A stretch of DNA of 64,000 bases from Podospora anserina (lineage: Eukaryota): positions 3,348,001 to 3,412,000 of the forward strand of contig CM030337.1 in the NCBI GenBank assembly GCA_017654855.1, read 5' to 3'. Positions 6,571 to 35,300 of this stretch are shown piece by piece. Below the pieces are notes generated by a model. It saw only the letters and a program-made list of their open reading frames with translations. It had not been told where the DNA came from and did no database searches. Positions within the stretch are counted from its first letter, which is position 1; each line of letters starts with the position of its first letter. A program made the position numbers and the translations under genes.

Positions 6571-6663
6571 GGGTGGCCGTTGCACACATAATAGACCGGT
6601 ATCCAATCAGAATACCAAAGATGCACATTTCACCATGAAATAAAGTGAAACTGAATCCCAGTA

Positions 6664-9547: not shown

Positions 9548-9720
9548 ACATATTTGATAAGCGAGCGGATCGGACAAGCGAGTGGATCGATTTCCACTAC
9601 CCTATTACAACTATCCTCAATTGCAAAACAATAACACTATTAACCTACTACAATTACATCAGAAACAGCTAAATCAAACTCTTTTGTAACCTCCTAGCAC
9701 GTACGGATATTATGGCTAGG
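9548..9720 (+). mobile_element. Left end of a pogo/Fot1-like DNA transposon (TIR fragment), truncated by an LTR insertion
   Basis: TA|ACATATTTGATAAGCGAGCGGATCGGACAAGCGAGTGG: TA target, AC(G)T-type start and doubled AAGCGAG subrepeats. Confidence 0.6.
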
Positions 9721-11230
9721 TGTGACGAACCCCTATCCAGAACTTTTGAAAGAGATACTGGTTAAAGGTACTTCTAAATAATCCTAGTTCGGTGCAGCTA
9801 AACAGTGCACAATAAGATATCTTAATGTAAACACAAGATGCCGTGAATATAACTTAAATTGCATACTGCGGAACTATCTATCTATACTAGCTAGTTCCTC
9901 CGTATATATAGATTAGGGGACCGTGGACCGTTGACTTATAGGCGGTCCTCGGTCCTCTCTGGATTGGCCGATACTAGACCGTGGACCGTGAGACCTACTA
10001 CGGTCCCCGGTCCCCACCTTATTGGTCCGTTCCGTCCTACTAGACCGTGAGCCCCGCTTGATCGTTCGGTCTAGCCCTGATTGGTCCGGCGCGCCCCACT
10101 GTCTTCCAGAACTGTAATATGATGCTCCCCCTTCTAGGCCGAAGCCCCTGCGGCCTAGTCTTCTTCCACTGCTAACGATACCGTAAATCTTTTCCTCCTT
10201 ACCTCTCCTTTATTTTTACTATATTTAACCGCATACAAAAACATTATTATAAAACTAATTAGTTTTCCGCCCTAGCCTTATAAATCCTCCGTTATAGTTT
10301 TACCGTAATACTGTATTTTACTTACTTCGCCTCCGAAAACCTATATATTATAGCCCCTAGATCCTTACGATGCGCCGAGTACGTACGCCGTAAGATTCTA
10401 TACAACGGGTTTAACGTAAGCTCCGCTCGTAAGTATATCTTCCTTTTCTTTTGGTACTATGTCTGACCGTTCGTAGTGACCCGAGCGATAGAAGAGTAAG
10501 ATAGACTTAAGCGTAAGGAGTAAGAGCTTAAAGAATAATTCTCGTAATTAACTGCTAAGCTTATCCGGGTAAAATAAATACGTCGCTTTTTCCGTAATCG
10601 CGAGGGGCGTCTTTTCGCGCGGGGTATTTAGAAGGAGGATACCCTAGTGTTACGGTCCGTCGTACCGCCCTCTAGTTCTTCGGGTGCTTCTGCGTAGCCT
10701 ACCGCCGCGTAGGATGCCGCCCTATAGACTCCTTAAGCCCTGGATCCCTCCGTAGGTCTTAACTGGCCTTTTAATTTTTCTTTCGACCCTAGTGCGGCTA
10801 GTCCTTTTTTTTTAACCGCCTAAAATACTGCCGCTAGCGCGCCTTCCCTTTCCTAAGGTGGTTAAAGCGCGTAGTAGTCTTTATATTTAGGTCCCTTTAT
10901 ACCTTCCAATTTCGTAATATAGTATATAGTACGTCAATTACTTTGTCGAAGGCGTAGGTTCGATTCCTGCTAAGGTTCTTTTAGCTTTATATTATAGTTA
11001 TTTAGCTATAACCTAAGGCCTAGTCTTTTTACTTACTTAAGTTTTGGCCGGTCCGGGTATCGCTAGTAGAATTTCTTTTATTTATTTAGGTAGTTAAAGT
11101 ATGCCTATAGTTCTTACGAGTTATCTATAGCTAAATATTTTAACTAATTAACTAAATACTTTAATTTACTTCTATTGAACCGTAAATCTAGTATCTCTTT
11201 TACATCGTACTCTTTTTCTTCGTCCTCCGC
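9721..11230 (-). mobile_element. 3' part of a RIPed Ty3/Gypsy element (crapaud-like): 3' LTR 9721-~10119, PPT ~10125-10133, 3' internal region
   Basis: Conserved LTR half TGTGACGAACCCC...TATATATAG shared with three other LTRs in the window. Purine tract AAGGGGGAG on the minus strand next to the LTR. Confidence 0.75.
10280..10860 (+). pseudogene. RIPed antisense accessory ORF of the gypsy element, Zn2Cys6-like
   Basis: Reverting RIP changes in 'cgatgcgccgagtacgtacgccgtaagattctatacaacggg' gives RCAECVRRKxPCDG, preceded by further Cys positions and followed by a charged coiled-coil-like stretch. Confidence 0.5.
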
Positions 11231-11560
11231 TGTGACGAACCCCTGTACAGAACCTCTGAAAGGGATACGGGTTAAAGGTAACTTCTGACAATTAGTTCGG
11301 TGTAGCTAAACAGTGCACAATAAAATGTCTCGATGTAAACACAAGATGCCGTGAATACAAACTTAAATTGCATACTGCGGAACTGTCTATCTACACCGGC
11401 CAGTTCCTCCGTATATATAGACCTCAATCCTCTAGGTACCTCCGTACCTAGATCACGTCGATCACCAAGCGCTCCTGGTGATCCATCCTGGCTCACCTCG
11501 CTCACCCAGCGCTCCTGGCGAGCCGGCTCACCTCTGCCAAGAGGTGAGCGCCCCACTGTC
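11231..11560 (-). mobile_element. Crapaud-like LTR (different U3 type), interrupted near its 5' end by the LTR at 11561
   Basis: Same conserved half as the 9721 LTR. Ends in GCGCCCCACTGTC like that LTR but lacks the last ~18 nt. Confidence 0.8.
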
Positions 11561-11647
11561 TGTCACAACCCTGGTACAGGACGGTTGTGGGGCCACGGGA
11601 ATAAGGGGGCCAATCGGGAGAACGTATAGGGGAGCCAATCACAGTGA

Positions 11648-11822
11648 AGGCAGAGTGATCAGTGTGATCAGGGCACTGAGCAGACTGAGCAGAGTGATCA
11701 GTGTGATCAAGGCACTGAGCAGACTGAGCAGAGGTGATCAGTGTGATCAGGGCACTGAGCAGACTGAGCAGAGGTGATCAGTGTGATCAGGGCACTGAGC
11801 AGACTGAGCCGAGGTGATCAGT
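11648..11822 (+). repeat. Tandem array of ~39-40 bp (4+ units, GAGCAGAG(G)TGATCAGTGTGATCAGGGCACTGAGCAGACT) in the LTR U3
   Basis: Directly visible near-perfect tandem units. Confidence 0.9.
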
Positions 11823-13020
11823 GGCCTTAGGAGACTGATCACGGCTTAGCATAAGGACTATATATACGGAGGAACTGGCTGGTGTAGATAGACAGTTCCG
11901 CAGTATGCAATTCAAGCTTATATTCACGGCATCTTGTATTTACATCGAGACATCTTATTATACACTGTTTAGTTACACCGAACCAAAATTATTCTGAAGT
12001 TACCTTCAACCAGTATCCCTTTTAAAGGTTCTGGATAGGGGTTCGTCACACGTTATATACTTACTTTAACTCTATTATGGATAAGTTAAAGGTATTAAAA
12101 TAACGTTATAGCCGGAAACGTTAGTACTTAGGGGGGCTCGACCTAACCCACTATTAACTAGCTTTTTACTCGTATTTAAAAGCTTAAAGATAAGTTACGC
12201 CTTTCCTACAATACCCTTACGTAAGAGAACGCTATACTTTACTAGAAAATTAGTATCTTACGTAAGGAGGAAAAGCGTATTAAACTCGAGGTACTAGACC
12301 GGTACGGAAGTATAAAAGGAAAGTTAGGGGGATTTTTAATTTAATTTAAAGTTTACTTTCGGTATTACCCTTCTTATTTTCCGGATAAGGAATCTAAAGT
12401 TATATACGCTACGTTTAGGCTTAAAAATATAATACTTATATAGTTCGAACCGATTTTAGGAAATTATTTCGATAATATATATAATTAAAGGGAGGATATT
12501 ATTAAAGTATATTTTAAGTTATATAAAGGTTTTAAAAAAAGATTAAAGAGGTATTTAAAGAGTATAACGAAAGTAAGTATATTTAAAAGCGATTAACTAA
12601 CTTTAAATAAACTCGATTTACTACCGATTACATTATAGTATTTAGGACGGATACGCTCCGTAATACGATTAATAATAAAGGATTAATATAAGTATTTTAT
12701 AATAGGCTTAAAAAAAAATTAAAAATAAACTATATCGGATAAAACGATCGGAGACTATCGACGAATATATCGTAATAATAGTTTATATTAATAATTAATA
12801 ATATTAATATTATAAAAAGCGTAAAGGTATATATATATAAAAACCTTATTACTTTAACGATAAAAGGAAGAAATAACCGTACGGGACTTACGTTTTGGGG
12901 ATTATATATATAAAGCTTATAGAAATTAATATTATTTAATAATAAAAATTATAAAATTAAAATAAAAATAATTTTAAATATTTTAATTATAATAAAATAA
13001 AATATTTTAAAAGGGACTAT

Positions 13021-13382
13021 TGAAATGGTGAGAAAACACACAAAACAACCACAACACCACAAATATACCCTCAACAGGTCTCAGAATGAACACACCTGCG
13101 TGACAGTGACTCGCTCGCAGGCCGCACTTCACGTAGGACAAAGAAAAGACACTATGGGCTCGCAGGCCACATAATAAGCACCGGATTGGCCTGATCAGAG
13201 GGCCAGAATTGCCTGCACGCGTGCAAGGCACAAAATACGAAGCAAAGAATAAAAGTCGATGTCCTGTCTAAAATAGAATGTCCGAAGCAGACCGCTTATA
13301 TACATGACCCTGAACCCCTGAGTCCTCTGAGAGCCCCGCTTCCTTACTCATACTCTCAGGCCTGTGGCCGCACCCCAAACCA
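13021..13382 (-). repeat. 3' LTR (362 bp)
   Basis: Direct repeat of 24522-24884, 32348-32710 and 43855-44217. Confidence 0.97.
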
Positions 13383-13559
13383 AACCTCCCTTCGCATTTG
13401 ACCACTACAAACCAGTGGGCAAATGCGTACACAAGAAAAAAATCCCTTACAAACCAAAAAAAAAAAAAAAAGAAAATATCGTTCAGCAGAAAGAAGGGAA
13501 AACGATGTAATCCTGCTATCCCTTTATCCATTCTCCCTTGATCAGAGAGAAGAGCACCC

Positions 13560-15083
13560 TCACTTCTCGGATCTCAGAGCATACCTCCGTCCCTGTCGAG
13601 CCATCACAACTGGTGACCTAACGACCTCCTCCCTTCGTCTCTGAGGAACTCCAGGAGCCCACTCCCATCCCATGAAACCAGGTGTGTGATCAGGCGAAAG
13701 GTGTGTTGTTGGCGATCCTGAGTGGTCATAAGTAGGGGGACGGGCAATTACAGGCCCAGAGAGGAGCGGCGAGTCCATTGTCACAGGAGTGCGGAACCCA
13801 AAGGGGGTTGCTACCCTGCTTGGTCGTTGAGAGTTGCTCGACACGCTACTTGGTCCAAACCCTTCATGATCAGAGGGAAGACCCACGACGCACTCATCTC
13901 CCTCAACAGTAGTAACCAAAGCTAACGGAGAACCAGGGAGGGAAGCAAACCGGGGAATTGGTGGAGACTTGAAAGGAGACGAGAGGGTGCTTGGCAGGTT
14001 GAATCCTTCCGCGTCCATCAAGTCCTCCAGGCCCCTCCTCCTCCATTTCTTATCACGCACCCTCTGATCAGGCTCACAACCCAAAGACCTTTTCACATAA
14101 GCCATCCACAACCTCATCATCTTCTTCCCCGCAACGCCCACGGTCTTGCAGTCTCTGTAGCAACGATCTCCTCTCCAAGCCTTTACTACCGTTAAATCCT
14201 CCTCTTCACCGTACGAAACACCTCCCTGAAAGTAGGTACGGCAGTGCTCCAAGACCCAAAGACCACATTCCCACGCCCCGCCCTGTTCACCGCAAGCTGG
14301 CCTCCTCACTTTCACGTCAAGGCTGCAGTGGAAAGCGTGACGGATGTAAGATACCAGGCAAGAAATAGCATTAGCTTGATACCCCTTCCAATCCTTCGAC
14401 GAGTCCATATAAACCAAAATGCCAGTAGCAACGTCGTAGATGCCCACTGCCCAGTGGCTTCCGTTGTTGACATGAATGGGGAGGACCCAGTATCGTCGGT
14501 CAAAGGCGTTGTGGTTGTCGTTAGGCAGGAAAAAGCGCATCGACGACTTCATCATAACAGGGTTCAGAGGCTCTCCAGGGATCCATATACAACGCTCGAG
14601 GATTCCCTGAAGAGAGTACCGAAGAGCGCAGGTAAGGACCGAGCTAGTGAGCCACTGCTTGGCCTCTAGTTGACCTTGAAGGTCATACATAGCGCAAGTG
14701 AGGGAAGCTACATGGATACCGTAGATGTGAGTCCGATCAGGGGGGGTCGTTATTCTCAAGCCAGGAAAAAGATATTTGATAGTGTCAATCGAAAACTGCT
14801 CCACGAAAGTGGTGTTGATCCAGTCGGGCCGCCTTCCCACAACATGATCTCCTGGGTCGGCAACCAGGTTAAGGCCAAAACGAACAGGCCAGAGAGTGTC
14901 ATCGCCTTGGGGAAGGAAGATGCCGCGCGGGGGACCAGAGCCATAGACCCTGTCGATACCTTGAAGGCGCGCTTTCCGAATAATCTCTTTAACGAGATCA
15001 TTGGGAGGGCCGAATTTCTTGGTGGCGGTGAATTCTTCCCATGACATGTCGTGAATGGACTTTGTAAAAAGCGTTGATGACAT
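13560..15083 (-). CDS. Retrotransposon cargo: Ulp1/SENP-like (peptidase C48) cysteine protease with a Ser/Pro-rich tail
   Basis: WLTSSVL, YWVLPIHVNNGSHWAVGIYD (catalytic His), VYMDS (Asp), QGGAWECGLWVL (oxyanion Gln and catalytic Cys). Likely start MSSTLF at 15083, though the frame is open to 15248. Confidence 0.85.
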   Translation of the reverse strand: MSSTLFTKSIHDMSWEEFTATKKFGPPNDLVKEIIRKARLQGIDRVYGSGPPRGIFLPQGDDTLWPVRFGLNLVADPGDHVVGRRPDWINTTFVEQFSIDTIKYLFPGLRITTPPDRTHIYGIHVASLTCAMYDLQGQLEAKQWLTSSVLTCALRYSLQGILERCIWIPGEPLNPVMMKSSMRFFLPNDNHNAFDRRYWVLPIHVNNGSHWAVGIYDVATGILVYMDSSKDWKGYQANAISCLVSYIRHAFHCSLDVKVRRPACGEQGGAWECGLWVLEHCRTYFQGGVSYGEEEDLTVVKAWRGDRCYRDCKTVGVAGKKMMRLWMAYVKRSLGCEPDQRVRDKKWRRRGLEDLMDAEGFNLPSTLSSPFKSPPIPRFASLPGSPLALVTTVEGDECVVGLPSDHEGFGPSSVSSNSQRPSRVATPFGFRTPVTMDSPLLSGPVIARPPTYDHSGSPTTHLSPDHTPGFMGWEWAPGVPQRRREEVVRSPVVMARQGRRYALRSEK

Positions 15084-15423
15084 CGTTCTGTGAGAATTGA
15101 GAGGGAGTAGTGTGTGGTGTGATCTGTGATCAGAGGGTTGTCGAGAGGGAAGTGAGGAATTTTTTTGGAATGGAGAGTTAAAGAGGGAAGAAGGTCTTCG
15201 GTGAGTCTTTGTTCTCTGTTGTCTGCCTGGCTTGTAAGGCAAGATCATCAGATAGTTGCGTAAGCCGTTTGAGGAGGAAAGAGCGCTCTGATGAGTCTCC
15301 CTCCTGTAGAGGTCTGTAGGACCAGTCGCACCGTCCTATCCTCTGGTTATAAATACCCATGCCAGTTCTCCTCATTCCCGCTCACTCCTCATCTTTTCAG
15401 TACTTATTAACCGCTTCCTCCCA
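15084..15423. promoter_or_regulatory. Putative bidirectional promoter between the two cargo genes
   Basis: 340-bp gap between divergent ATGs. TTATAAATA at ~15347 followed by a pyrimidine-rich leader before ATG 15424. Confidence 0.45.
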
Positions 15424-16493
15424 ATGGCCTCTTCTTTGAGGAAACCTGCTGCTTCGTCCGATCAGGCGGTCGACGACCTTACTACCCAGGTATCCACGAC
15501 CTCTTTCGCCAAAAACTTCCCAGTCAGGTCGAGGGAGTCCTTGACCTTGCTGCGTACGACTGGTCCGAGGTCGCCATAGACCCTACTCAAGAGCCTTTGC
15601 TTGCTACCCTCACTCATCGTCCCACCGACCTCACCCGTGCTCCCAACAATCAAGGCGTTGCTTACAAGAGGCACGTCTGGGTTCGGCGTCCTACTTGCGT
15701 TCACGACTCCACCATGCCCAAAGGTGCTAATGCTTATCACGACATTTCTCTCCCCCATCAGGCTGCTCTTTGGTACCTCAAGATTTCCCCTCTAGATCCC
15801 AAACACGTGGCTGCTCCCCTCTACCTTGAGTGGTTCCTCCCTGATCCGACGAAGAAGGGGGGTAAGAAAGAGTGGCAGCTACTTTTCAAGGACATTGGTG
15901 CGGACAAGACTGTCACTGATTACATCTCCAAGGCGTTGTCGACCGGTTCCGTTAGGCGGATTTTCGTCGAACGGTCCAATGGGTGGTTCTTCGGGCGCTG
16001 GCTCTTCGAAATCGTCAAGCGGGCTCATCGCTCTAAAGGCTTATTTGTCCAGGCCACCGGGTTACTGTAAGTGCCGCCCCCCTGATCAGACTTAGCCTGA
16101 CACTAACATGTTGGATTCAGTCATGCCAATCCATGTGATGAGTGCGATCAGAGCTATCGCCGGTCTTTCGTGACGTTCCCCGATGGGACCAAAACTAAGG
16201 TGATGTGGCCATACTTCGGTTGTGTGGGAAGAGAGGACCTCGATTGGAAATGCGGGAACTGCTGGCATAAGGGTATCCATTGCTCATGGTCCAGTGTTGA
16301 TGAGGACAGCCCTTACTTCAAGGATCTTGGTAGTGGTGGGTTATCGAAGTTGGATCGTGGTGCCGTGAGCTTGATTCCTGGTGGTGAGGAAGTCGATTGG
16401 GACCAGGAGTGGGAAGAACAGCGGGCTGAGTACAAAGAGCTTAGGAAACAGCAGATGGATAAGAAGAAGGAGAAGAAGAAAGAAAAAGAATAG
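15424..16493 (+). CDS. Retrotransposon cargo (antisense): ~338-aa DUF3716-like Cys6 zinc-binding protein, exons 15424-16066 and 16121-16493
   Basis: Intron GTAAGT...CTAAC...CAG (54 nt) gives VQATGLLHANPCDEC...WPYFGCV...KCGNCWHKGIHCSW and a Lys-rich tail. One apparent frameshift (A5 at ~15511) reads A6 in the sister copy. Confidence 0.75.
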
Positions 16494-16729
16494 TCTTCCA
16501 CTTCCTCAGATCAGAGGAAGGGGCATAAAGAGAGGAGTGAATCGGAAAAAGAAATGACAGGAAAAGAAAAAGAAAAAATTAAAAATTCAATGCGATGATC
16601 TTCACCCCAATCAATCACCTCCCTTAGTGTCTTTCCTCCCTTTGAGAACAGACAGCTCCCACAGCTCTGTTCTCACAACACAAGCTTCAGTACCCTCTTA
16701 AAGAAAAAAAAACAACTACAACGCCTTCG

Positions 16730-19700
16730 TCATCGTCTCCCCTGATCACCCAAGAAGTCCTCTGGTCTACCCTTCTTCAGGACCACCTCTATACTTTTGC
16801 CCTTCTCAAATCTCTTCTGCACCTCAGCATTCTTCCGTTCCATCCAAGTCTTCCCCCTGGTCATCATTCTCCCTGGTGTTTCTTCCACTATCTCTTCTTC
16901 TTCATCCTCATCTTCCACCATATCCACGCCTTCCTTCACTCCATTCCCAGGCACCTGCTCAACTCTCCCTAGTCCTGGCTGCATGTCCGTATCCTCTTCA
17001 TCTACATACACGTCTTCCAACCTAAAAAACTTCTTTACCCTGTTTGGCGTGTAAGAAGCTCGCAATGGCACCCCATCCAGTGTCTCCAGGAAGTAGCAAG
17101 TGTTGCCTGGTTCGACCTTCCTCACTCTGAAAGGGCCGTCCCAGCGGTACTGTAGCTTCCTTACCACACTCATATCCAACTTTCTATCCATTTTATACAC
17201 CAACACCAAGTCCCCCCTTCTGATCATGCTATTCTCAGGCCTAATGCTGCGAATCCCTTTTCTGTTCTTTTCTTGCCGCGGCTTTCTGTCTTGCCATGCC
17301 AACCCTCTCAGCCACCAGAGTCAGATTCATCTCCTGGGATTTCAATAGTCTCGCCCTTGCCTCTATTAAATCCATAGTCGCTCTCTCCTTCCAGTGTCTC
17401 CCTGATCTGTCGAAGCCAATCTTTTCCCACTGGACGACTCTCCATGACGGTACGTCCTTTTCGATCGGCGTAATGGGGTTAAACCCATGTGCCAGATAGA
17501 AAGCACTGTACCCATGAATACCTCGTGTCGTGGTCCTATCAGCAAACAACACATAAGGGAGCCACTGCTTCCACTTCTTCCCCGTCCCATCCGTCATTTT
17601 TGCCAGCATCGATGCAATTGGGATGTGACCAGACTCCGTCACTCCATTTGCTCTTGCGTTGTAAGGTGAGACCACCACCCGAAGAACTCCTAGCCTCTCT
17701 AAAATCTCAGCAGCTTCCTTCCTAAATTCTGATCCGCCGTCCACCACCACGATCAGAGGGTGACCCCATCTGAGGATGATATCGTGCAGGATAAAGTTCT
17801 CAACCCCAGAAGCCTTGCCTGAGCTCAAGACCTTCGCTTCTGGATACCCAGTCAAGTCATCCCTCGCTTCCAGAAGGTAGGCTTTTTCTCCCGAAGCCGT
17901 TGGTAAGAACTGAACGTCTAAATGCCACTTCGCAAATGGGGTAGCTAAAGGCTCAGTATATAAGTGCCAGTCCTCCCAACGCTTCGGGCTCCATTGTTGA
18001 CATTGCCTACATGTCTTGATCCAAGCCTCGACGTCAGCGTACATACCCTTCCAGTAGTAGTTTTCTACTACTCGGGCATAGGTAGCTTCCGTCCTTTGTG
18101 GCCCATCTCGTTGTGACACGCATTGAAGACTCTTTCCCGCTCGATCAGAGGGTCAACAATTCTCCTGGGGGGAAAGCCTCCTTTGTTTGGCTTAAGAAAC
18201 AAAACTCCGTCTTCGAGAATCATTTTCAGGGCGTCATTCTTGATGGTCTGAACGTCAAACCTCGTCTTAGCCCTTGGCTCCGCACCAGTCGCGAGGAACT
18301 CGGCGATAGCATGGGAGTGAGGAGACCACAGTCCATTCAAGTAGGGGCCTTGCCCAATAACTTCCTTTTTCTTCTTCCTGATATTCACCCGCCAGACACT
18401 TACTTCCTGGATATCGTTCTTCCAGATCCTTGCGTCAACCTCATCATCAATGTCTGGCTCTAACTCCTTCTCCCTCAGATCAGAGGGGCCAGGTGGCTTT
18501 CTCGATAGTGCGTCTGCCACAAGGTTCTTACTCCCAGGGATGTGAACAATTGTGAAGTCGAAAAGTCTAATCCATCCCAGCCATCTCATCATCAAGGCGC
18601 CGGGAACGTCACTAGCCGCCCCCTGGACTTGGTGGACTACCACTTGAGCGTCCGTTTCCACCGTAAAGTGTACCCCGAAAAGATACCTTCTAAATCTCCT
18701 CAAAGTATACAACAGTCCTCTCAACTCCCTCTTGGTGGCATCATACCTCTGTTCAGCCGGGCTCCAAATACCACTCTCAAACCGACAAGGGTGCCGTTTT
18801 CCATCAGGTCCTACTTGTTCAATCACCGCTCCCCACCCCGTCAAGCTTGCATCAAAAATAACAAAGATTCTACCGAAACGGTCGTCATCAAACGTCAGAG
18901 AAGCCAGACACGGTGCCTCTGTGATCAGAAAGGCAAGCCACTCCATCGCACCCTGTTGAGCTTCCGTCCATTCCCATCTCGTGTCCTTCCTCATCAAGAA
19001 ATACAGCGGAACTGCGATCAGATTGAAGAGAGGTACCCATAGCCGATAGTAGCCGGTGATCCCCAGGAAGGCGCGAACATCCTTAAGACTGTGGCAAGTT
19101 CGCCATTCCCTTATCTTCACTATCTTTGTCTGATCAGGGAGGCGCCCGTCCGGTGTACAGGAATAGCCAAGGATAACAGCTTCCCGTCTGCACCAAAGGG
19201 ATTTCACGGCTGCAATTGTGGCTCCTGCAAGCTCACAGTTGAGCAAGACTGCGTCGATATTCTTCAAGTGCTCCAGGACCCACTTCCTAACTCCTGGCCT
19301 TTCTTCTTCACCATTGTAGTCCCACCTTGGCCCTTTCACTGCGATATCGTCCAGGTATGGCCGACACACCTGTGGGATGAGATCTTGAAAGACTCTGGTC
19401 ACGGCTCTTTGGAACTGGGCCACTGAGTTGGTAGCTCCTTGAGGTAGGGTACACATCCTGAATAGGCCGATAGGTGTCGCGAAGGTAGTGAGGTCTCGGC
19501 TCGTCAGGGCTAATTTGACTTGGTCGTATCCGGAGAAGAAGTCAAGCAAGGAGGTAATAAGGCACCCTGCAAAGTCCTCGCTGAACTCCTCAGTGCTTGG
19601 TGGGATAAAGGCATCTCGTTGCGTAACCTTATTGTATCTCTGGGCATCGTTGATCAGACGGAGGCCACCATCCTTTTTCTTTACTAGGAACCAGTTGTTG

Positions 19701-20668
19701 CGGTAGGGACCATGCGCTTCCTCAATAATATTTCTCTTGATTCGTTCCCTAAGGAGATCGATGACTTTCCCCACGAGTGGCTTCGGGATCGGAATAGACT
19801 TGCTTTGCCACGCTTTGTGAGGGATAGTCCTGATGTGTTGAGCAGGGAAGACTTCTTCAAGGATCTGTCCACACTCGGTGAAGTCCCATGCCAGTGCAGC
19901 CTCCCTTGCGAATAAGATTGCCGTAAACACTTTAACCTCCTGATCTGTCAAAATGTCGGTGGTTTGTCTGATCAGATCGGCTAAGCGTTCTGGAGTGAGG
20001 CGTGACCCTCTGATCATTTCAGAAAACTTAGGGACCACAATATCGTCGAATTCTGAGCCGTATTGTAGGGATTCCTTGACTGCCGCCCATCTCCTTACTT
20101 TCCAGTTCGGATCTCCTTCAGGAGTGCTACCATCTGACCCAGCATTATCAACCGGCTTCACCTTCTTATCTACCCTCTTGTACATCGTAGCAGTAGTAAC
20201 AATATCCGCAGGCGTTGGCCAGGCCTGTTCAAAAGTGGTGATCAGGCTGGTCTTCATGTTGTTTTTCTTCTCAGAAGGGGGCGGAGGTGGATGACGTCTA
20301 TGTGGTTGTGTAGTGAAGAGGCTGCGCTGACCTGGTTGAGTGAGGGACCAGTTAAATATCCCCAAGCATAAGGATGCCATATCGGGCTTAAATGGGGTTA
20401 TCCTGCTAGTCCTCTGATCAGACGGCGGCGATGTCTTTGGCAGTGGTGGCGACGGTACTAAATGCAGACCTGTTATGAAGGTCGGTGGTGGCGGTCGTTC
20501 TTTCCCTGAGATTTCGTCCGAAGTTAGAGTTCTTGTCGTAATTTCCACTCTTCCAGGCTGAAACAAAGACTTCTCTTTCTGGCAGTCCCTTATACCTCCC
20601 TTCTTTCCTTCCCTCTGATCACTAATATTCTTTCCTCCCTTGCTCCTAACATCCCCCTTTTCTTTGTT
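16730..20668 (-). CDS. pol: pol: reverse transcriptase, RNase H, integrase (two 1-bp frame breaks at ~18090 and ~17270)
   Basis: LDFFSGYDQ, LPQGATNS, YLDD; FDASLTGWGAV, ETDAQ, VADALSR; HHCC (CHNEMGH..CRQCQ), DDE (HLDVQ, VDGGSEF, TESGH), GPF motif. No chromodomain. True start unknown. Confidence 0.93.
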
Positions 20669-20863
20669 TTATAAGAAATAATATCAGACGCCAGGCAATA
20701 ATTTAATAACGGCAAACTTGACTCCCCAAAATAAAATTAAGCAAAGAACGCCCAGCTCCTTCATTCAGTCCCCAATCACTTCATCCCCTTCCTCCAGCTC
20801 CTCCGTTACCCACTCAGGGACAGGTACTCCTTCATTAACCAATCCCTTAAACACCTGTAAGGG

Positions 20864-23800
20864 TCAGCTGGCAGGAGAGGCATTACCTCGATCCCTGCCG
20901 TTATATTCCGCCTTCATCTTATCAATCACCTCCTTTTTTACCACGTGGGCCTTAATCAGCTTTCCCCCATACAACATATTCGCGCTAATCATACAGCCCT
21001 TCATAAAATCAAGGGTGAGGCTCGTATCCGTGAAGAACGGGATGCCCAATAGCAGGTCATGGAAACCCAGAGCCTCAGTGTTATCAATAACGAAGAAATG
21101 ACACAAAATTGGAACCCCAGCCAGCACTACTGGAGCCTGAGTCTCACCTATAAACGCAACCGGATCTCCATGAAGGCCTTTAGACTGTAGGTTCGTCGAC
21201 ACCATCGGTAGACAGAACCTCTCAGCTACAGCCCTACTGATCAGGTTGCACTCCGAGCCTGTGTCCAACATTGCCAGCACCTTCTCTGAAGTTGGTGAGA
21301 CGAAGTTACAATATAGCGATGGGACGTTGTGGGTTCGAGTGACGGCTCCCAGGAGAGTTCGCTCACTACCGGAAAGCCGGCCAATGGGCGTAGACAGCAG
21401 AGTCCGCAATCGCTCTTCTGGGCTGTCACCCGGTTGGACCTTGCCTTCGATGATCTTCTCCCAGATGCCTCCCTCGACCACACCATACTCACCATCCGCC
21501 GTGATCCCGTACAAAGCAGGGACAGTCTTCCTCTGATCAGACGGAGGAGTCTTGCTGTGTCCAGCCGTCTGAAAATTCGTCCGAACCGTTGACGGCAAGG
21601 CCTCCCCCTTCTGTGGGACTTCTCTCTTTCCATCCGGGGTACTCTTGGAAGATCCACGCCACTCGATCACCTCAGCATCCTCGGCCACACTCTTCACGTA
21701 ATCCATCAACCGGTAAGCAAATGTGGGTGAAACCCTACAATGCTCTTCCAGTGTGAACTTAGTCTGACCACAGGCGTACTTTTTGGCTTTCTCGGCAATG
21801 TAATCCCCAGAGTCCTCTGCCTCACCATCAGGCAACCTTGAGCCACTCCGACTCCATCCCCTGATCGGACGAGACTCCTCCTCAACTACCTTTGGCTTCT
21901 CTTGCGCGGGGGTGAGTACCACTTTCGGATTTTCGGCTGAGGCTGGGTCATCCATATCCTCTTTCGGCAGATCCTCGATCCTTACTCTCTTCGCTCCTTG
22001 CGCGCCTACCCCCACTTCCACCTCTTGGTTGCAGACGACCACTGGGGCATCATCAGAGCGCTTCAGAATGCTCCTAGGCGACCACTTCTCTGCTGAGCAG
22101 CGTTGCAAGGCATTCCTAGTAATGTAGTCACTGGCTGAGTTCTCGTTAAACGGTACGTAGGGTTTGGAGTACCCATGAAGCCTGTTTAACCTGACATCCA
22201 TAGCCCTGGCCATCTGAGTAGCTGTCTGCTCCCTCCCTCTGATCAGAGAGACCTCGGGCCTGTATCCCTTGCCCTCACGAGCTTCCCAGTGCTCAGCCCA
22301 TTTCGTGTAAGCTTCATAGGCCCTATTCAGTTCTGGTTTCAACGAAATTGCAGCACGAACCAGGTCGCCAACCTTCCCTTCACGCTGCGCCTTCCTCACA
22401 TCCTCTTGATCAAGCCACGCTTTTTCACTCTCCGGCCACTCCTTCTTACCGATACACACTCTGCCTCCTTCAGTATGGCACAGTCCCCACGCCTCATCAT
22501 ACTCCTTCTTCGGACACTCCGTCGACTTAGCGTAATGGCCAGTCTTGCCGCACCAGAAGCACCTTCTTGGTGGGGGAGGGCTATCGCGGTACTGCCCCCC
22601 TGATCTTCCGAACTGGGTTTTAGTATCAACAATGGGGAAGGTATTGAAAGACGAATCCATTTCCCCATTAGGGCCAATGCCAAAATCCAGGAGTAAGGTG
22701 CCTGGTCTTCTAGGTGTTGAACGCGGGTCCTCATTATCCCAGATTTGCCGTTTCCCGGTGCAGAGAAACCACCGTAGATATTCGCCCTCAAATGCTGCAG
22801 TGCCATCTCTCTGTCTACCATAGCGTTAACCGCCATGTACTGGTCGAGCACCTCGGCCGCCTGATCAGAGGCAGCAGGGGAGGGTGCAATGGTTGATTTG
22901 TCCTCCTTGTAGATTCTTCCTCCCACGTCATACCCATCTTCGATCACATCATTAATCCAATCGCTCCAGGTAATAAAATTCATGGATCTTAAACGACGTT
23001 CGGATCCTCCTCGGTTGATAAGGGTCATCCTCATTGACTCGGAGAATTTCATCCAAAAGCGGCTGGCAACCCTGGCTCTTACTGCCTCTTTCTCCCCGGT
23101 CGGCACTCGAGAGAGCAGTTTGGAGTGGTCAAAACAACCTTCCTTAACTCGCCCACACCTTCAGGGATAACCTTGGCGTAGAAGTCATCCAACTCCCTGT
23201 GGATATCTTCGTCTTGTCGGGGGTCATAGATCTTAAAGAGGCGTTTAAGGCGGACAACCAGGACAGGCCAAGTATCGGTGGGTGTAGGTAGGTCTACACA
23301 TTCGTCAATCTGTTTTCCCACATCGAAGTCACACCAGGATTTGAACTTGCGAACGCGAGAGGTAAATTCCACGACATGGTACTCTTCACAGGCATTCTCG
23401 AAACGCTCCAGATATTCCGTAAAGTGCTTCCCTTTGAAGTTGCTCTTAAAACCGACTTTCTTCGGATCAGGGAATTCACGCTGAGGAAAATACATAGGCA
23501 CCATGGGATAGGGGGTTGGATGATCAGACGTAGGGGACCCCTGGAAGTGGCGATAGTCGGGGTAAGCTCCTATGGGATATGGGTATCCGGGTTGCTGGAA
23601 TTGATGCGCGAACCCAGGAAGAGGAGCGGGATATCCGGCATGCCGAGTGGGAGGCGCAGTATGATTCCAAGCAGCAGGATTTGGGTGGGTACGAGGTCCA
23701 CCTGGCACGTCAGGAGCGTTGGGCCTTGCAGTCGGGCCACCTTGATCAGAAAGGGGCGAGGGGTCTCAGCATCTTCAGGGTGAGCGCGGTTCGCAGCCGG

Positions 23801-23941
23801 GGAGAGGACGAATGGTGATGATTCCGGGGACCTGGCCGCCGGAATGGCCACTTCTACCACGGAACGAGCCGTAGGAGCTTGATACCCCTGGTTGTCGCCG
23901 GGAAGGCTAGCCGAAGCGATGGGTGGGACATTGTCGGACAT
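20864..23941 (-). CDS. gag: gag-protease polyprotein, ~1026 aa after correcting three 1-bp deletions (~23755, ~23132, ~22691)
   Basis: Four overlapping ORFs joined by +1 corrections that the sister copy supports. FKGKHFTEYLERFE capsid-like start, zinc knuckle CFWCGKTGHYAKSTEC, aspartic protease LDTGSECNLIS. Confidence 0.88.
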
Positions 23942-24502
23942 GTCGATACTCGATGATTGCTGTTGCGTTTGCGTTGGTGGTATGGCTTTTTCCTTGTGTA
24001 TGTTGTTGGAAATATGAAGACGGTTGTCCCTTGCAACTCCAGTATGTGGGCATGAGTTACATCTACCCAGATCAGAGGGAAAGTGTCCTCGTCTCCTTGC
24101 TTTTGGGTTCCCGATGTCCTGAGTCAAACTGACCCGGAAATCCCCACGATTGTCCACCATCGCTAAACAACACACCAGGAGGATTCCTCCTAACCAAAGA
24201 TAGGAGAGGACTTTGATAGTTGACGCGGAGATAAGGTCCACTAACGAGCTAGTCTCAACCAATGCTCTTAGTTCACTTCCCGGTCCCATCCGGACCACAC
24301 ACTTGACTCTCCACTCGCGGGCAGAAAGTTTAGAGTTTGGTCGATGATGAAAGAGCTTTATCCGATCAGACGGAGAAGAATCGTTTCCGTTGAACCTCGC
24401 GGGGTTCAGTGAAGTTGTCGGTGCTTGTTGTCGTTCGTGGCTTCGCACTTCCTCCAGTACCCAGGGCTTGTGAGTCCAGTTTGGACCCTGAGCTTTGCTC
24501 AA

Positions 24503-24519
24503 CCCGGGCACGACCTCCA
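24503..24519 (-). promoter_or_regulatory. Primer-binding site TGGAGGTCGTGCCCGGG, probably tRNA-Gln
   Basis: Starts with TGG 2 nt inside the 5' LTR boundary. The complement ...CCCGGGCACGACCT-CCA resembles fungal tRNA-Gln 3' ends (from recall, not searched). Conserved in the sister copy. Confidence 0.7.
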
Positions 24520-24521
24520 TT

Positions 24522-24884
24522 TGAAATGGTGAGAAAACACACAAAACAACCACAACACCACAAATATACCCTCAACAGGTCTCAGAATGAACACACCTGC
24601 GTGACAGTGACTCGCTCGCAGGCCGCACTTCACGTAGGACAAAGAAAAGACACTATGGGCTCGCAGGCCACATAATAAGCACCGGATTGGCCTGATCAGA
24701 GGGCCAGAATTGCCTGCACGCGTGCAAGGCACAAAATACGAAGCAAAGAATAAAAGTCGATGTCCTGTCTAAAATAGAATGTCCGAAGCAGACCGCTTAT
24801 ATACATGACCCCTGAACCCCTGAGTCCTCTGAGAGCCCCGCTTCCTTACTCATACTCTCAGGCCTGTGGCCGCACCCCAAACCA
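24522..24884 (-). repeat. 5' LTR (363 bp) with TATATAAG box at ~24797-24804 (minus)
   Basis: Direct repeat of 13021-13382, adjacent to the PBS. Confidence 0.97.
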
Positions 24885-32347: not shown

Positions 32348-35300
32348 TGAAATGGTGAGAAAACACACAAAACAACCACAACACCACAAATATACCCTCA
32401 ACAGGTCTCAGAATAAACACACCTGCGTGACAGTGACTCGCTCGCAGGCCGCACTTCACGTAGGACAAAGAAAAGACACTATGGGCTCGCAGGCCACATA
32501 ATAAGTACCGGATTGGCCTGATTAGAGGGCCAGAATTGCCTGCACGCGTATAAGGCACAAAATACGAAGAAAAGAATAAAAGTCGATGTCCTGTCTAAAA
32601 TAGAACGTCCGAAGCAGACCGCTTATATACATGACCCCTAAACCCCTAAGTCCTCTGAGAGCCCCGCTTCCTTACTTATACTCTTAGGCCTATAGCCGCA
32701 CCCCAAACCAAACCTCCCTTTACATTTAACTACTATAAACCAGTAAGCAAATACGTATATAAGAAAAAAATCCTTTATAAATTAAAAAAAAAAAAAAATA
32801 TTATTTAATAGAAAGAAAGGAAAATAATATAATTCTATTATCCCTTTATTTATTTTCCTTTAATTAAAGAAAAAAGTATCCTTACTTTTCGGATTTTAAA
32901 GTATATTTCTATCCTTATCGAATTATTATAATTAATAATTTAATAACTTTTTCCCTTTATCTTTAAGGAACTTTAGGAGCCCACTTTTATCTTATAAAAC
33001 TAAGTATATAATTAAGCGAAAAGTATATTATTAACGATCCTAAATAGTTATAAGTAAGGGAATGAATAATTATAAATTTAAAGAAAAGTAACAAGTTTAT
33101 TATTATAGGAGTACGGAATTTAAAAAGGGTTATTACTTTATTTAATTATTAAAAGTTATTCGATACGCTATTTAGTTTAAACCCTTTATAATTAAAGGGA
33201 AGACCTACGATATATTTATTTCTTTTAATAATAATAATTAAAGTTAACGGAAAATTAAAGAGAAAAGTAAATTAGGGAATTAATAGAAATTTAAAAAGAA
33301 ACGAAAGGATATTTAATAAGTTAAATCCTTCCGCGTCTATTAAGTTTTTTAGGCCCCTCCTCCTCTATTTCTTATTACATACCCTTTAATTAAATTTATA
33401 ATTTAAAAACCTTTTTATATAAATTATTTATAATTTTATTATTTTTTTCCCCGTAACGCTTATAATTTTATAATCTCTATAATAATAATCTCCTCTTTAA
33501 ACCTTTATTACCGTTAAATCTTTTTCTTTACCGTATAAAATATTTCCCTAAAAATAAATATAATAATATTTTAAAACCTAAAAACTATATTCCTACGCTC
33601 CGCCCTATTTACCGTAAATTAATTTCCTTACTTTTACGTTAAAACTATAGTGGAAAGCGTAATAGATATAAAATATTAAATAAGAAATAATATTAATTTA
33701 ATACCCCTTTTAATCCTTTAACGAGTTTATATAAATTAAAATATTAATAATAATATTATAAATATTTATTATTTAATAACTTCCGTTATTAATATAAATA
33801 AAAAAAATTTAATATTATCGGTTAAAAACGTTATAATTATTATTAAATAAAAAAAAGTATATCGACGATTTTATTATAATAAAGTTTAAAGGCTTTCTAA
33901 AGATCTATATATAATATTCGAGGATTCCTTAAAAAAAATATTGAAAAACGTAAGTAAAGACCGAACTAATAAACTATTATTTAGCTTTTAATTAACTTTA
34001 AAAATTATATATAATATAAATAAGGGAAGCTATATAAATACTATAAATATAAATCCGATTAAAGGAAGTTATTATTTTTAAATTAAAAAAAAAATATTTA
34101 ATAATATTAATCGAAAATTATTTTATAAAAGTAATATTAATTTAATCGGGCCGCCTTTTTATAATATAATCTCTTAAATCGGTAATTAAATTAAAATTAA
34201 AATAAATAAATTAAAAAATATTATTACTTTAAAAAAGGAAAATACCGCGCGAGGGACTAAAACTATAAACCTTATCGATACTTTAAAAGCGTGTTTTCCG
34301 AATAATTTCTTTAACGAAATTATTAAGAGGGCCGAATTTCTTAATAGTAATAAATTTTTCCTATAATATATTATAAATAAACTTTATAAAAAGTATTAAT
34401 AATATTATTTTATAAAAATTAAAAGAGAGTAATATATAATATAATTTATAATTAAAAGGTTATTAAAAAAAAAATAAAGATTTTTTTTTAAAATAAAGAA
34501 TTAAAAAAGGAAAAAAGTTTTTAATAAATTTTTATTTTTTATTATTTACTTAATTTATAAAGTAAAATTATTAAATAGTTACGTAAGCCGTTTAAAAAGG
34601 AAAAAACGTTTTAATAAATCTCCCTTCTATAGAGGTCTATAAAACTAATTATACCGTCCTATCCTTTAATTATAAATACTTATATTAATTCTCTTTATTT
34701 CTACTTACTCTTTATTTTTTTTAATATTTATTAATTATTTCCTTTTAATAATTTTTTTTTTAAAAAAATTTATTACTTCGTTCGATTAAACGGTTAATAA
34801 CTTTATTATTTAAATATTTATAACTTCTTTCGTTAAAAAACTTTTTAATTAAGTTAAAGGAATCCTTAACCTTATTATATATAATTAGTCCGAAATTACT
34901 ATAGACCTTACTTAAAAGCCTTTACTTATTACTTTTACTTATCGTTTTACCGACCTTACCCGTACTTTTAATAATTAAAATATTATTTATAAAAAATATA
35001 TTTAAGTTTAGCGTCCTATTTATATTTATAACTCTACTATACCTAAAAGTATTAATATTTATTATAATATTTTTTTCTTTTATTAAATTACTCTTTAATA
35101 CTTTAAAATTTCCCCTTTAAATCCTAAATACGTAACTACTCCCCTCTACTTTAAGTAATTCTTTCCTAATTTAACGAAAAAGGGAAGTAAAAAAGAATAA
35201 TAATTATTTTTTAAAAATATTAATACGAATAAAACTATTATTAATTATATCTTTAAAGCGTTATTAATTAGTTCCGTTAAACGGATTTTCGTTAAACGGT

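What the first reader, a model, noticed from the sequence alone, without database searches (positions are those of the whole stretch)
13021..24884. Candidate retrotransposon-encoded anti-silencing system: SUMO-protease-like enzyme, zinc protein and an element-wide cis motif
Seen: an intact Ty3 element has a 3.3 kb extra region with two divergent genes (Ulp1-like protease, DUF3716-like Cys6 protein) and a strongly over-represented GATCAG-core motif along its whole length. The RIPed sister copy has the same architecture, so this is a family trait and not a one-off capture. Known: Arabidopsis VANDAL DNA transposons encode VANC proteins that bind motifs accumulated in the element and remove silencing; Ulp1-like domains occur in some DNA transposons (Kaonashi MULEs, Zisupton); SUMO contributes to TE silencing in several eukaryotes. 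Inference: the zinc protein marks element copies through the motif, and the protease locally removes SUMO or another UBL, countering heterochromatin or RIP-linked silencing. I do not know this combination from a fungal LTR element.
Basis: partly seen in the sequence, partly recalled or inferred. Interest (0 to 1): 0.92.

Follow-up and report, generated by a model that had tools for sequence, protein, structure and literature searches.

The report
Retrotransposon with protease, zinc protein, motif
A fungal jumping gene carries two extra genes, a SUMO-protease-like enzyme and a cysteine-rich probable DNA-binding protein, and is studded along its whole length with one evenly spaced short DNA word; the same three things turn up together in an unrelated mobile-looking unit elsewhere, which suggests a portable self-marking system.

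Summary
Window 13021-24884 (minus strand) is a Ty3-type LTR retrotransposon with 362/363-nt LTRs, PBS, PPT and a 4-bp TSD. Between pol and the PPT it carries a sense, intronless clan-CE (Ulp1/C48) peptidase gene and an antisense, intron-bearing DUF3716-type Cys-rich gene. GATCAG occurs 52 times against 8.8±3.1 in shuffles, in LTR, gag-pol and cargo alike, in all reading frames, and more evenly spaced than chance.

Corrections: this copy's gag-pol is broken by 13 one-base indels that contigs of four other runs lack. The RIPed sister was near-identical before RIP, so it is not independent evidence.

New evidence: a metagenome contig (L001) has a 31%-identical peptidase homologue, two DUF3716 genes and no RT found. 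It holds 79 sites of the same word (40 as CTGATCAG) against 8.9±3.0, again evenly spaced. Motif positions are kept between its two old DUF3716 paralogues although synonymous sites are saturated.

So word, reader candidate and enzyme travel together on different backbones. Anti-silencing is plausible but untested, SUMO specificity is unresolved, and one copy was fully RIPed. This is a new variant of TE-encoded, motif-directed systems.

The parts
13017..13020 (.). Target-site duplication CTAT (left); its partner is at 24885-24888
   Evidence: Flanks printed. The joint 13015->24884 (skip 11,868 = element + TSD) in a contig of run X2 marks the empty site.
13021..13382 (-). 3' LTR in element orientation, TG..CA, 362 nt, with one CTGATCAG at 13191-13198
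13385..13393 (-). Polypurine tract (GAAGGGAGG on the minus strand), two bases from the LTR
   Evidence: Read
13560..15083 (-). Clan-CE / C48 (Ulp1-like) peptidase gene, sense to the element, no intron. 507 codons from the second ATG (P0001) plus stop; an upstream ATG at 15248 gives 562 aa. Catalytic H210, D227, Q267, C273.
   Evidence: 4 of 4 inter-strain SNPs are synonymous.
15084..15423 (.). Divergent intergenic region between the two cargo genes, with TATAAATA at 15348-15355 about 70 nt before the ATG of the Cys-rich gene
   Evidence: Read
15424..16493 (+). DUF3716-type Cys-rich gene, antisense to the element. ATG at 15424. In this copy the frame shifts at the A-run 15511-15515, where copy B has one more A. 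Exon 1 runs to 16066, the intron is 16067-16120 (GTAAGT..CTAAC..CAG, 54 nt, in phase), exon 2 is 16121-16490, stop 16491-16493.
   Evidence: Both exons align collinearly with L001 protein P0058 (E 4e-7 and 9e-7), which passes Pfam DUF3716.
16709..20857 (-). pol part: RT, RNase H, integrase (H2C2 finger plus core) and a C-terminal SH3-like tail. Broken into three frames in the window (16730-17320, 17241-18152, 18068-20668).
   Evidence: One 1383-codon frame results once the one-base differences seen in other runs are read through with N.
20861..24571 (-). gag (CCHC knuckle) plus aspartic protease. Broken into four frames in the window. Followed by an in-frame TGA (20864-20866) before pol.
   Evidence: One 1237-codon frame, in the same frame as pol, after read-through.
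24503..24519 (-). Primer-binding site (TGGAGGTCGTGCCCGGG on the minus strand), two bases from the 5' LTR
   Evidence: Read
24522..24884 (-). 5' LTR, 363 nt, with one CTGATCAG at 24692-24699
13021..24884 (.). 41 motif sites: 11 palindromic CTGATCAG, 20 GATCAG-only and 10 CTGATC-only on the plus strand. Extended consensus ctGATCAGRGGG. Mean spacing 288 nt, largest gap 669 nt. Density is about 3 per kb in LTR, cargo and gag-pol alike.
32348..44217 (-). RIP-mutated sister copy with the same architecture, TSD ACAT. LTRs are 96% and 93% identical to those of copy A, the whole copy 69%.
11231..12050 (.). Small foldback/TIR unit outside the element. Its 430-nt centre holds 40-nt tandem repeats with 9 copies of the same GATCAG word (11657-11840).

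Best explanation
The element carries a portable three-part accessory module.

(1) A cis word, core TGATCAG and often the palindrome CTGATCAG, is written at regular intervals of about 200-300 bp through the whole element, coding sequence included.
(2) A DUF3716 Cys-rich protein is the most likely reader of that word on double-stranded DNA.
(3) A clan-CE (Ulp1/SENP-type) isopeptidase completes the module.

The isopeptidase then acts on that chromatin, removing SUMO or a related modifier such as NEDD8 from silencing factors or histones. This would keep copies transcribable.

Shown here: the anatomy; enrichment and even spacing of the word; an active-site-complete C48 fold; constraint on both genes and on motif positions; co-occurrence of all three parts on two unrelated backbones.

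Inferred: that DUF3716 reads the word, that the two proteins cooperate, what the substrate is, and that the outcome is relief from silencing.
For: Enrichment and spacing
- Window element: 52 hexamer hits against 8.84±3.09 in shuffles, giving 41 sites. Spacing CV is 0.55 against 0.97 for random placement; 0 of 2000 random placements are as regular. The largest gap is 669 nt.
- Sites lie in the LTR, cargo, an intron and gag-pol, in all codon phases and both orientations. The constraint is therefore on nucleic acid, not on peptide.

Independent locus L001
- It carries a peptidase homologue (31% identity), two proteins passing Pfam DUF3716 (31.2 and 26.2 bits, cut-off 22) and a 1552-aa protein of no known family.
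- No match to any of six window gag-pol pieces by tblastn.
- 79 sites (40 CTGATCAG) in 2100-17400 against 8.9±3.0. There are 0 sites in the 4.5 kb of flanks. Spacing CV is 0.50 (0 of 2000 as regular).
- A third contig, L002, carries another homologue: 5 sites in 1682 nt against 1.2±1.1.
- The two cargo families were the only protein similarity found between the window element and L001 (tblastn both ways), so an element-encoded reader would have to be one of them.

Selection on the word
- L001's two DUF3716 paralogues have pS 0.78 and pN 0.31. They keep the word at 3 shared codon columns. At column 71 the neighbouring amino acids differ while CTGATC is kept.

Enzyme
- H 24/24, D or N 23/24, Q 23/24 and C 21/24 in the family, all four present in the window protein.
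- The family profile hits yeast Ulp1 at E 3e-13.
- The AF2 core has pLDDT about 85-95, and 54 PDB matches reach E<=0.001. Those listed are clan-CE peptidases, led by Ulp1.
- 4 of 4 SNPs in the ORF are synonymous.

Mobility with cargo
- Two TSDs, an empty site in run X2, and 20 holder runs of 9 studies.

Gene layout
- The sense gene has no intron and the antisense gene keeps its intron. This is what passage through an RNA copy predicts.

Precedent
- A DUF3716 orthologue pair is linked to direct dsDNA repeat binding (passages of PMC10776026 and PMC4650311).
Against: - No test of binding, of a protein-protein contact, of substrate or of chromatin effect was possible.
- Copy B was RIPed to 69% identity, and RIP erased the word: 22 of 31 GATCAG sites now read AATTAA. 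The module therefore does not block RIP.
- The window proteins themselves fail Pfam cut-offs.
- The Cys-rich gene is frameshifted in this copy, and its only inter-strain SNP is non-synonymous.
- Motif positions do not coincide between the window and L001 peptidase genes.
- A peptide proxy for the palindrome ([SPTA]DQ or LI[SR]) is enriched at nominal p<0.05 in only 6 of 31 peptidase relatives and 1 of 19 relatives of L001's large protein. Either the word is not universal or other members use other words. The proxy also misses the window protein, so it is insensitive.
- Nearest solved structures include SUMO, NEDD8 and ubiquitin enzymes, so SUMO is not singled out.
Confidence: 0.35

Rival explanations
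1. The word is read by the element's DUF3716 protein, but for a transposition-related purpose rather than anti-silencing. Candidates are self-recognition (target immunity against insertion into itself), transcriptional activation of its own copies, tethering of cDNA or DNA to a nuclear site, or copy-number control. The protease would serve integration, repair or nuclear-pore steps.
For: This uses the same linkage evidence as the best explanation. Ulp1 and OTU domains recur in transposases of several classes, and the authors of PMC2836005 (passages read) suggest roles in transposition or repair. Even spacing with a small largest gap suits coating or protection of the whole length.
Against: The module sits on an LTR retrotransposon and on a unit with no RT detected. 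These move by different chemistry, so a step specific to one transposition mechanism is unlikely. No data discriminate further.
Confidence: 0.25
2. The word is a host-factor site, for a host transcription factor, insulator or silencing-machinery component. The two cargo genes are unrelated to it, and the co-occurrence reflects shared host lineage or shared ancestry of the DNA.
For: The palindrome suits many dimeric host factors. The peptide proxy finds no enrichment in most relatives of either protein family. A small foldback unit without either gene also carries the word in tandem.
Against: Host DNA beside both loci lacks the word: 15 hits in 26.6 kb and 0 in 4.5 kb. The two loci share no detectable sequence except the two gene families, yet both carry the word at about 5- and 9-fold excess with the same regular spacing. 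The flanking preference differs (RGGG in the window; C-rich in L001), as expected if each element tunes its own reader.
Confidence: 0.15
3. The word acts in RNA. CUGAUCAG is self-complementary, so many copies could pair within or between transcripts (dimerisation, packaging, condensation) or bind an RNA-binding protein.
For: 11 of 41 sites in the window and 40 of 79 in L001 are perfect palindromes, and palindromes start dimerisation of retroviral RNAs (recalled).
Against: 30 of 41 window sites are non-palindromic and lie in both orientations, 20 against 10. L001 has no RT detected and has genes on both strands. The word also fills the LTR and the foldback unit's tandem repeats.
Confidence: 0.1
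4. The cargo is a neutral passenger captured from the host, and the word is a compositional accident of this family.
For: Extra genes of unknown use are known in fungal LTR elements, for example the antisense brtn gene of Boty (seen only as a reference and a methods passage in PMC8365987).
Against: 4 of 4 SNPs are synonymous. The catalytic residues are kept across relatives of 19-29% identity. The paralogues have pN 0.31 against pS 0.78. The same trio occurs on a second backbone. Spacing is regular with 0 of 2000 random placements matching. The k-mer ranks first at k = 6, 7 and 8.
Confidence: 0.05

Closest known systems
VANDAL (Mutator-like) transposons of Arabidopsis with VANC anti-silencing proteins (PMC5735166, abstract and passages read)
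   Same: A TE-encoded protein recognises a short DNA word that has accumulated at high density only in its own family. Density rather than single sites gives specificity. Tandem-repeat formation multiplies the word: here the 129-nt repeats in L001's peptidase gene and the 40-nt repeats of the window's foldback unit.
   Different: No sequence relation to VANC was looked for or seen. VANC21 sites (YAGTATTAY) lie in non-coding regions, arrayed in one orientation. Here the word is a palindrome-based core spread evenly through coding and non-coding DNA in both orientations. A separate isopeptidase gene is part of the set. The host is a fungus with RIP, and one carrier is an LTR retrotransposon.
REP9, an IS3EU-like DNA transposon of Zymoseptoria tritici with four genes, two of them DUF3716 (PMC8232023, sections 2.4 and 3.1 read; supplements not seen)
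   Same: DUF3716 genes are carried as accessory genes of an active fungal transposon. There are two DUF3716 paralogues side by side, as in L001.
   Different: REP9 has TIRs, 6-bp TSDs and an integrase-like transposase. No Ulp1-like gene and no element-wide word are reported in the parts read (REP9-3 had no hits). The window carrier is a Ty3-type retroelement.
Ulp1/C48 domains in transposons: Ginger1 and Mutator-type transposases, and NeSL/Utopia non-LTR elements (passages of PMC2836005 and PMC4640811). Kaonashi MULEs and Zisupton are recalled, not checked.
   Same: A clan-CE isopeptidase is carried by mobile elements of several classes, with function unknown and a role in transposition proposed.
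   Different: There the domain is usually fused to the transposase or RT protein. Here it is a stand-alone gene with its own conserved N- and C-terminal regions, paired with a DUF3716 gene and a cis word. My four searches on this topic listed no paper that describes one in an LTR retrotransposon.
Boty-like Ty3 elements of Botrytis cinerea with the additional antisense gene brtn (Zhao et al. 2011, seen only as a citation and a methods passage in PMC8365987)
   Same: A fungal Ty3-type element with an extra antisense gene between pol and the 3' LTR.
   Different: I could not read that paper. No relation of brtn to DUF3716 was tested, and I know of no protease gene or element-wide word there.

Membership tests
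Peptidase C48 (Ulp1/SENP), clan CE | Match to Pfam PF02902 at or above the gathering score | tested here: not met
   The window protein scores 17.8 bits against a cut-off of 20.7, E 0.003. 6 of 10 remote relatives scanned pass, at 21.0-36 bits.
Peptidase C48 (Ulp1/SENP), clan CE | Catalytic His-Asp-Cys with the oxyanion Gln. I recall the yeast Ulp1 spacing as His to Asp 17 and Gln to Cys 6; no call checked it. | tested here: met
   H210, D227, Q267 and C273 in P0001. Family counts are H 24/24, D 16 plus N 7 of 24, Q 23/24, C 21/24.
Peptidase C48 (Ulp1/SENP), clan CE | Clan-CE fold | tested here: met
   The family profile hits 1euv_A (Ulp1) at E 3.2e-13, Ulp2 at 2.7e-10 and SENP8 at 1.3e-7. The AF2 model's core pLDDT is about 85-95. 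Foldseek gives 54 PDB matches at E<=0.001, and those listed are clan-CE enzymes, with Ulp1 at E 1e-6 and TM 0.55 by target.
Peptidase C48 (Ulp1/SENP), clan CE | Isopeptidase activity on SUMO rather than NEDD8 or ubiquitin | not testable with these tools
   SUMO, NEDD8 and ubiquitin enzymes all appear among the best matches.
DUF3716 (Pfam PF12511) | Match to the Pfam model | tested here: not met
   Neither exon of the window gene gives a hit, even at E<=10. The L001 proteins P0059 and P0058 pass at 31.2 and 26.2 bits against a cut-off of 22. The Atlas places P0058 among DUF3716 clusters of Ascomycota at score 0.92.
DUF3716 (Pfam PF12511) | Homology to proteins that pass the model, including the Cys pattern NPC-x2-C ... 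WP[FY]F-x-C ... CGNC ... C | tested here: met
   Exon 1 residues 137-217 align with P0058 residues 73-144 (E 4e-7). Exon 2 residues 1-49 align with residues 147-200 (E 9e-7). The two alignments are collinear and the Cys columns are shared.
Ty3/gypsy (Metaviridae) LTR retrotransposon | LTRs with TG..CA, TSD, PBS, PPT, and domain order PR-RT-RH-IN | tested here: met
Ty3/gypsy (Metaviridae) LTR retrotransposon | Open gag-pol (an intact, autonomous copy) | tested here: not met
   The window copy is split into at least six frames. When the 12 differences seen in four other runs plus one from copy B are read through with N, two frames of 1237 and 1383 codons appear in the same phase, separated by one TGA.
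VANC-type sequence-specific anti-silencing system | A short word accumulated at high density in the element family only | tested here: met
   Here, however, it also lies in coding DNA and in both orientations.
VANC-type sequence-specific anti-silencing system | The element-encoded protein binds the word, and its expression removes silencing marks | not testable with these tools
   No binding or chromatin data are available. Homology to VANC was not tested.

The most novel reading that the evidence does not exclude
A self-marking system of mobile DNA that moves between transposon classes. An element 'barcodes' its entire length, open reading frames included, with an evenly spaced 7-8-bp word. 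Its own DUF3716 protein reads the word. When the two-gene module lands in a new backbone (here a Ty3 retroelement and a unit without detectable RT), selection rewrites that backbone's sequence to carry the word. Small non-autonomous units with tandem copies of the word ride on the same reader.
Probability: 0.3. Interest if true: 0.9.

Novelty: new variant of a known kind. Interest (0 to 1): 0.78.

Why it matters
How transposons fight back against genome defence is known in molecular detail for very few cases; VANC in plants is the model. This finding offers a fungal candidate built from non-homologous parts and gives three concrete, cloneable components to test.

It would also give a function to two orphan observations. 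Ulp1-type proteases recur in transposons of many classes, and DUF3716 genes ride on fungal transposons.

The word is imposed on coding sequence at regular spacing and is kept between paralogues whose synonymous sites are saturated. That is an unusual and easily scanned signature. It could be used to find further reader/word pairs and to ask whether reader and word co-evolve.

Tried and rejected
Searches that found nothing
- No whole genome is held for the window, so copy number, cargo-less relatives and genome-wide word density could not be measured.
- Word-index homologue searches found only the window's own peptidase cluster and nothing for exon 2 of the Cys-rich gene.
- The first metagenome scan with alignment A3 found no relative. 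Two viral-contig scans found none.
- Earlier-findings look-ups returned nothing.
- Literature searches for the word itself returned only primers and unrelated text.

Runs and reads
- No RNA holder was listed. Three runs guessed as 'RNA?' gave contigs that cover the whole element unspliced and look like DNA or full-length element cycles. Nothing can be said on expression or on splicing of the 16067-16120 intron.

Complex prediction
- Complex prediction of L001's peptidase domain (P0036 residues 95-470) with P0058 gave no verdict, score 0.00.

L001's large protein (P0038)
- It has no Pfam, PDB-sequence or Atlas match.
- It has 19 relatives, none with a Pfam domain on record.
- Its AF2 model (pLDDT 71) has no Foldseek match at E<=0.001, so its kind is unknown.
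- I found no LTRs or terminal inverted repeats bounding L001's motif-rich 15 kb, so its mobility type is open.

Cargo boundaries
- No inverted repeats bound the cargo inside the Ty3 element. A nested DNA transposon was considered and dropped.

Ideas dropped
- Peptide proxy for the word in proteins without DNA: insensitive.
- RIP turning TCAGGG sites into telomere-like TTAGGG: TTAGGG rises only from 3 to 9 in copy B, and most sites become AATTAA.
- A 32-nt intron across the gag-pol TGA: rejected as too short.

Full report
ANATOMY OF THE WINDOW ELEMENT

The feature lies on the minus strand. Two direct repeats, 13021-13382 and 24522-24884, are identical except for one base of length. They begin TG and end CA and are flanked by CTAT on both sides. 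Two bases inside the 5' LTR lies a tRNA-type primer-binding site, TGGAGGTCGTGCCCGGG. Two bases before the 3' LTR lies a purine tract, GAAGGGAGG.

Pfam finds a zinc knuckle and aspartic protease, then RT, RNase H and the integrase H2C2 finger, in Ty3 order. The region between the end of pol (about 16709) and the purine tract is 3.3 kb of extra sequence. It therefore lies inside the transcribed retroelement.

IS IT INTACT?

Not as written in the window. gag-pol is cut into at least six frames.

Aligning copy A with the sister copy gives 20 indel events, 18 of them of one base, all printed in or beside short runs of one base, and they sit at the frame breaks. Contigs of four other public runs carry the same element. 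All four show the same differences at the 12 of 16 indel rows that were printed.

I read those 12 places, plus one taken from copy B, through with N. The result is two frames of 1237 and 1383 codons in the same phase, separated by a single TGA. The family is therefore coding-competent. Copy A is either mis-assembled at short homopolymers or a freshly decayed copy.

ACTIVITY

- The sister copy 32348-44217 has its own TSD, ACAT.
- It differs from A by 3607 substitutions, of which 3592 are C>T or G>A. That is RIP.
- Only 15 other substitutions separate the copies. The sister copy therefore proves one more transposition of the cargo-bearing element, not an independent lineage.
- Run X2 has a contig joining 13015 to 24884, which skips exactly element plus TSD. 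This is an empty site in another strain, supported by one short contig with a 35-nt side.
- 20 runs from 9 studies hold at least 90% of the sampled words of the cargo region.

THE PEPTIDASE GENE (13560-15083, minus, sense, no intron)

- The window protein alone scores below Pfam's C48 cut-off, 17.8 against 20.7 bits.
- An exhaustive HMMER search found 31 relatives at E<=0.001, with 22-56% identity. 6 of 10 that I scanned pass the C48 cut-off.
- Named sources include Staphylotrichum longicolle and Cercophora sp..
- In a 24-sequence alignment the catalytic His is 24/24, Asp or Asn 23/24, the oxyanion Gln 23/24 and Cys 21/24. The window protein has all four: H210, D227, Q267 and C273.
- The family profile hits yeast Ulp1 at E 3e-13, then Ulp2, SENP8, SENP1 and chlamydial Dub1.
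- An AF2 model has a confident core. Its PDB matches at E<=0.001 number 54, and those listed are clan-CE peptidases.
- The substrate (SUMO, NEDD8 or ubiquitin) is not resolved.
- The four SNPs that separate the window copy from three other runs inside this ORF are all third-position and synonymous.

THE CYS-RICH GENE (15424-16493, plus, antisense)

It starts about 70 nt after a TATAAATA box and shares a 340-bp divergent intergenic region with the peptidase gene. It contains a textbook 54-nt fungal intron (GTAAGT...CTAAC...CAG) that keeps the phase.

In copy A the frame slips at an A-run where copy B has one more A. Pfam gives no hit for the window protein. Both exons nevertheless align collinearly with an L001 protein that passes Pfam DUF3716, at E 4e-7 and 9e-7. 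This supports both the family assignment and the intron model.

The layout fits passage through RNA. The sense gene is intronless. The antisense gene keeps its intron in both copies.

THE WORD

- GATCAG or its complement occurs 81 times in the window: 52 in the element, 9 in a tandem repeat at 11657-11840, and 20 elsewhere.
- Dinucleotide shuffles of the element give 8.84±3.09, largest 17. CTGATCAG occurs 11 times against 0.33. The word tops the k-mer ranking at k = 6, 7 and 8.
- The extended consensus is ctGATCAGRGGG.
- Merged, there are 41 sites at about 3 per kb in LTR, cargo and gag-pol alike. They occur in every codon phase and both orientations, giving peptides such as SDQ, PDQ, LIR and LIN.
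- Spacing is regular. The CV is 0.55 against 0.97 for random placement, with 0 of 2000 as low. The largest gap is 669 nt against a random mean of 1220.

AN INDEPENDENT LOCUS

A metagenome scan with four peptidase relatives returned L001 (19.8 kb) and L002 (1.7 kb).

L001 carries:
- a peptidase homologue (P0009/P0036);
- two DUF3716 genes (P0058, P0059);
- a 1552-aa protein with no Pfam, PDB or fold match and 19 unannotated relatives.

I found no RT, integrase, LTR or TIR there. Yet positions 2100-17400 hold 79 sites of the same word, 40 of them CTGATCAG, against 8.9±3.0 in shuffles. Spacing CV is 0.50 and the largest gap is 469 nt. The 4.5 kb of flanks hold none. L002 has 5 sites against 1.2±1.1. 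The flank preference differs between the loci: C-rich in L001 and RGGG in the window.

The two DUF3716 paralogues of L001 are old, with pS 0.78 (saturated) and pN 0.31. They keep the word at three shared codon columns. At one of these the neighbouring amino acids differ while CTGATC is retained. This points to selection on the DNA word itself.

WHAT SPEAKS AGAINST A SIMPLE STORY

- Motif positions are not shared between the window and L001 peptidase genes.
- A peptide proxy for the palindrome is enriched in only 6 of 31 peptidase relatives and 1 of 19 relatives of the large protein. It also misses the window protein, so it is insensitive.
- Copy B was fully RIPed and lost the word.
- Nothing could be learned about expression.

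MECHANISM

Apart from the word, the only similarity I found between the two carriers is the two gene families (tblastn both ways). The Cys-rich DUF3716 protein is the obvious candidate. PMC10776026 (passage) calls a DUF3716 protein the orthologue of N. crassa NCU05718. PMC4650311 (passages) shows recombinant NCU05718 binding double-stranded TTAGGG repeats with no annotated DNA-binding domain.

The most likely working is a reader that coats each copy at about one site per one or two nucleosomes, together with an isopeptidase that acts on that chromatin. From recalled knowledge, SUMO supports heterochromatin in fission yeast, flies and mammals. Also recalled: neddylated CUL4 is needed for H3K9 and DNA methylation in Neurospora. 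Either modifier would be a sensible target. I give this reading 0.35.

The rivals are a transposition-related use of the same reader (0.25), a host-factor site (0.15), an RNA-level role of the self-complementary word (0.10), and neutral cargo (0.05).

COMPARISON WITH WHAT IS KNOWN

- VANC/VANDAL is the nearest working analogue (PMC5735166, passages). There, however, the sites are non-coding, tandem and in one orientation, and the set includes no enzyme gene.
- REP9 of Zymoseptoria carries two DUF3716 genes on an IS3EU-like DNA transposon (PMC8232023, two sections read).
- Ulp1 domains are known in Ginger1, Mutator and NeSL/Utopia proteins (PMC2836005 and PMC4640811, passages).
- Boty elements carry an antisense extra gene (citation seen in PMC8365987).
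- My searches listed no paper that describes this word, this gene pair, or a C48 gene in a fungal LTR element. The library lacks most subscription journals.

VERDICT

The anti-silencing function remains an inference.

Noticed in passing
window 11231-12050; arms also at 9721-9912 and 30600-30793: A small foldback unit. Two 194-nt inverted arms, each ending in CCAGTTCCTCCGTATATATAG, enclose a 430-nt core made of 40-nt tandem repeats that carry 9 copies of the same GATCAG word. A second pair of the same arms, inverted and 20.7 kb apart, encloses copy A and RIPed DNA. This is possibly a large TIR element, or non-autonomous riders on the same reader.
   Followed up: partly
window 20864-20866 (minus strand): A single in-frame TGA separates the gag-protease frame from the RT frame once the one-base differences are read through. 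This is a candidate stop-codon read-through site.
   Followed up: partly
window 13021-24884: Copy A differs from copy B by 20 indel events, 18 of them of one base. At the 12 of 16 indel rows printed, it differs in the same way from contigs of four other runs. The flanks printed show short runs of one base at these places. This looks like long-read assembly error confined to this repeat copy, or very recent decay.
   Followed up: partly
window 32348-32710 and 43855-44217: The LTRs of the RIPed copy are 96% and 93% identical to those of copy A, while the whole copy is 69%. This fits a length threshold for RIP (recalled).
   Followed up: no
window 32348-44217: RIP erases the word. Of 31 GATCAG sites in copy A, 22 read AATTAA in copy B and only 1 is unchanged.
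   Followed up: yes
L001 9022-9408 and 3847-4329: Three 129-nt tandem repeats lie inside the disordered C-terminal part of the peptidase gene, each with one CTGATCAG (peptide RQSDQ.KPDRS). A separate 23-nt tandem array lies between the two DUF3716 genes.
   Followed up: no
P0001 residues about 452-477 (window about 13650-13730); L001 P0036 residues about 780-805: The peptidase family shares a conserved C-terminal peptide, Y.H..SP..HLSP.H.PGW.GWE, after a long disordered linker. It may be a docking motif.
   Followed up: no
L001 10866-15572 (minus): A 1552-aa protein family (20 members found, one from Monosporascus sp.) has no Pfam domain, no PDB sequence match and no Foldseek match for a pLDDT-71 model. 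It has many invariant D/E/K/W columns and an N-terminal C..H..H..C pattern. It may be an undescribed transposase.
   Followed up: partly
L001 18134-18766 and window 57881-58405: The ORF beside L001's motif-rich unit has a 28%-identical relative in the window's host DNA (tblastn E 3e-11). It is probably a common fungal gene family.
   Followed up: no
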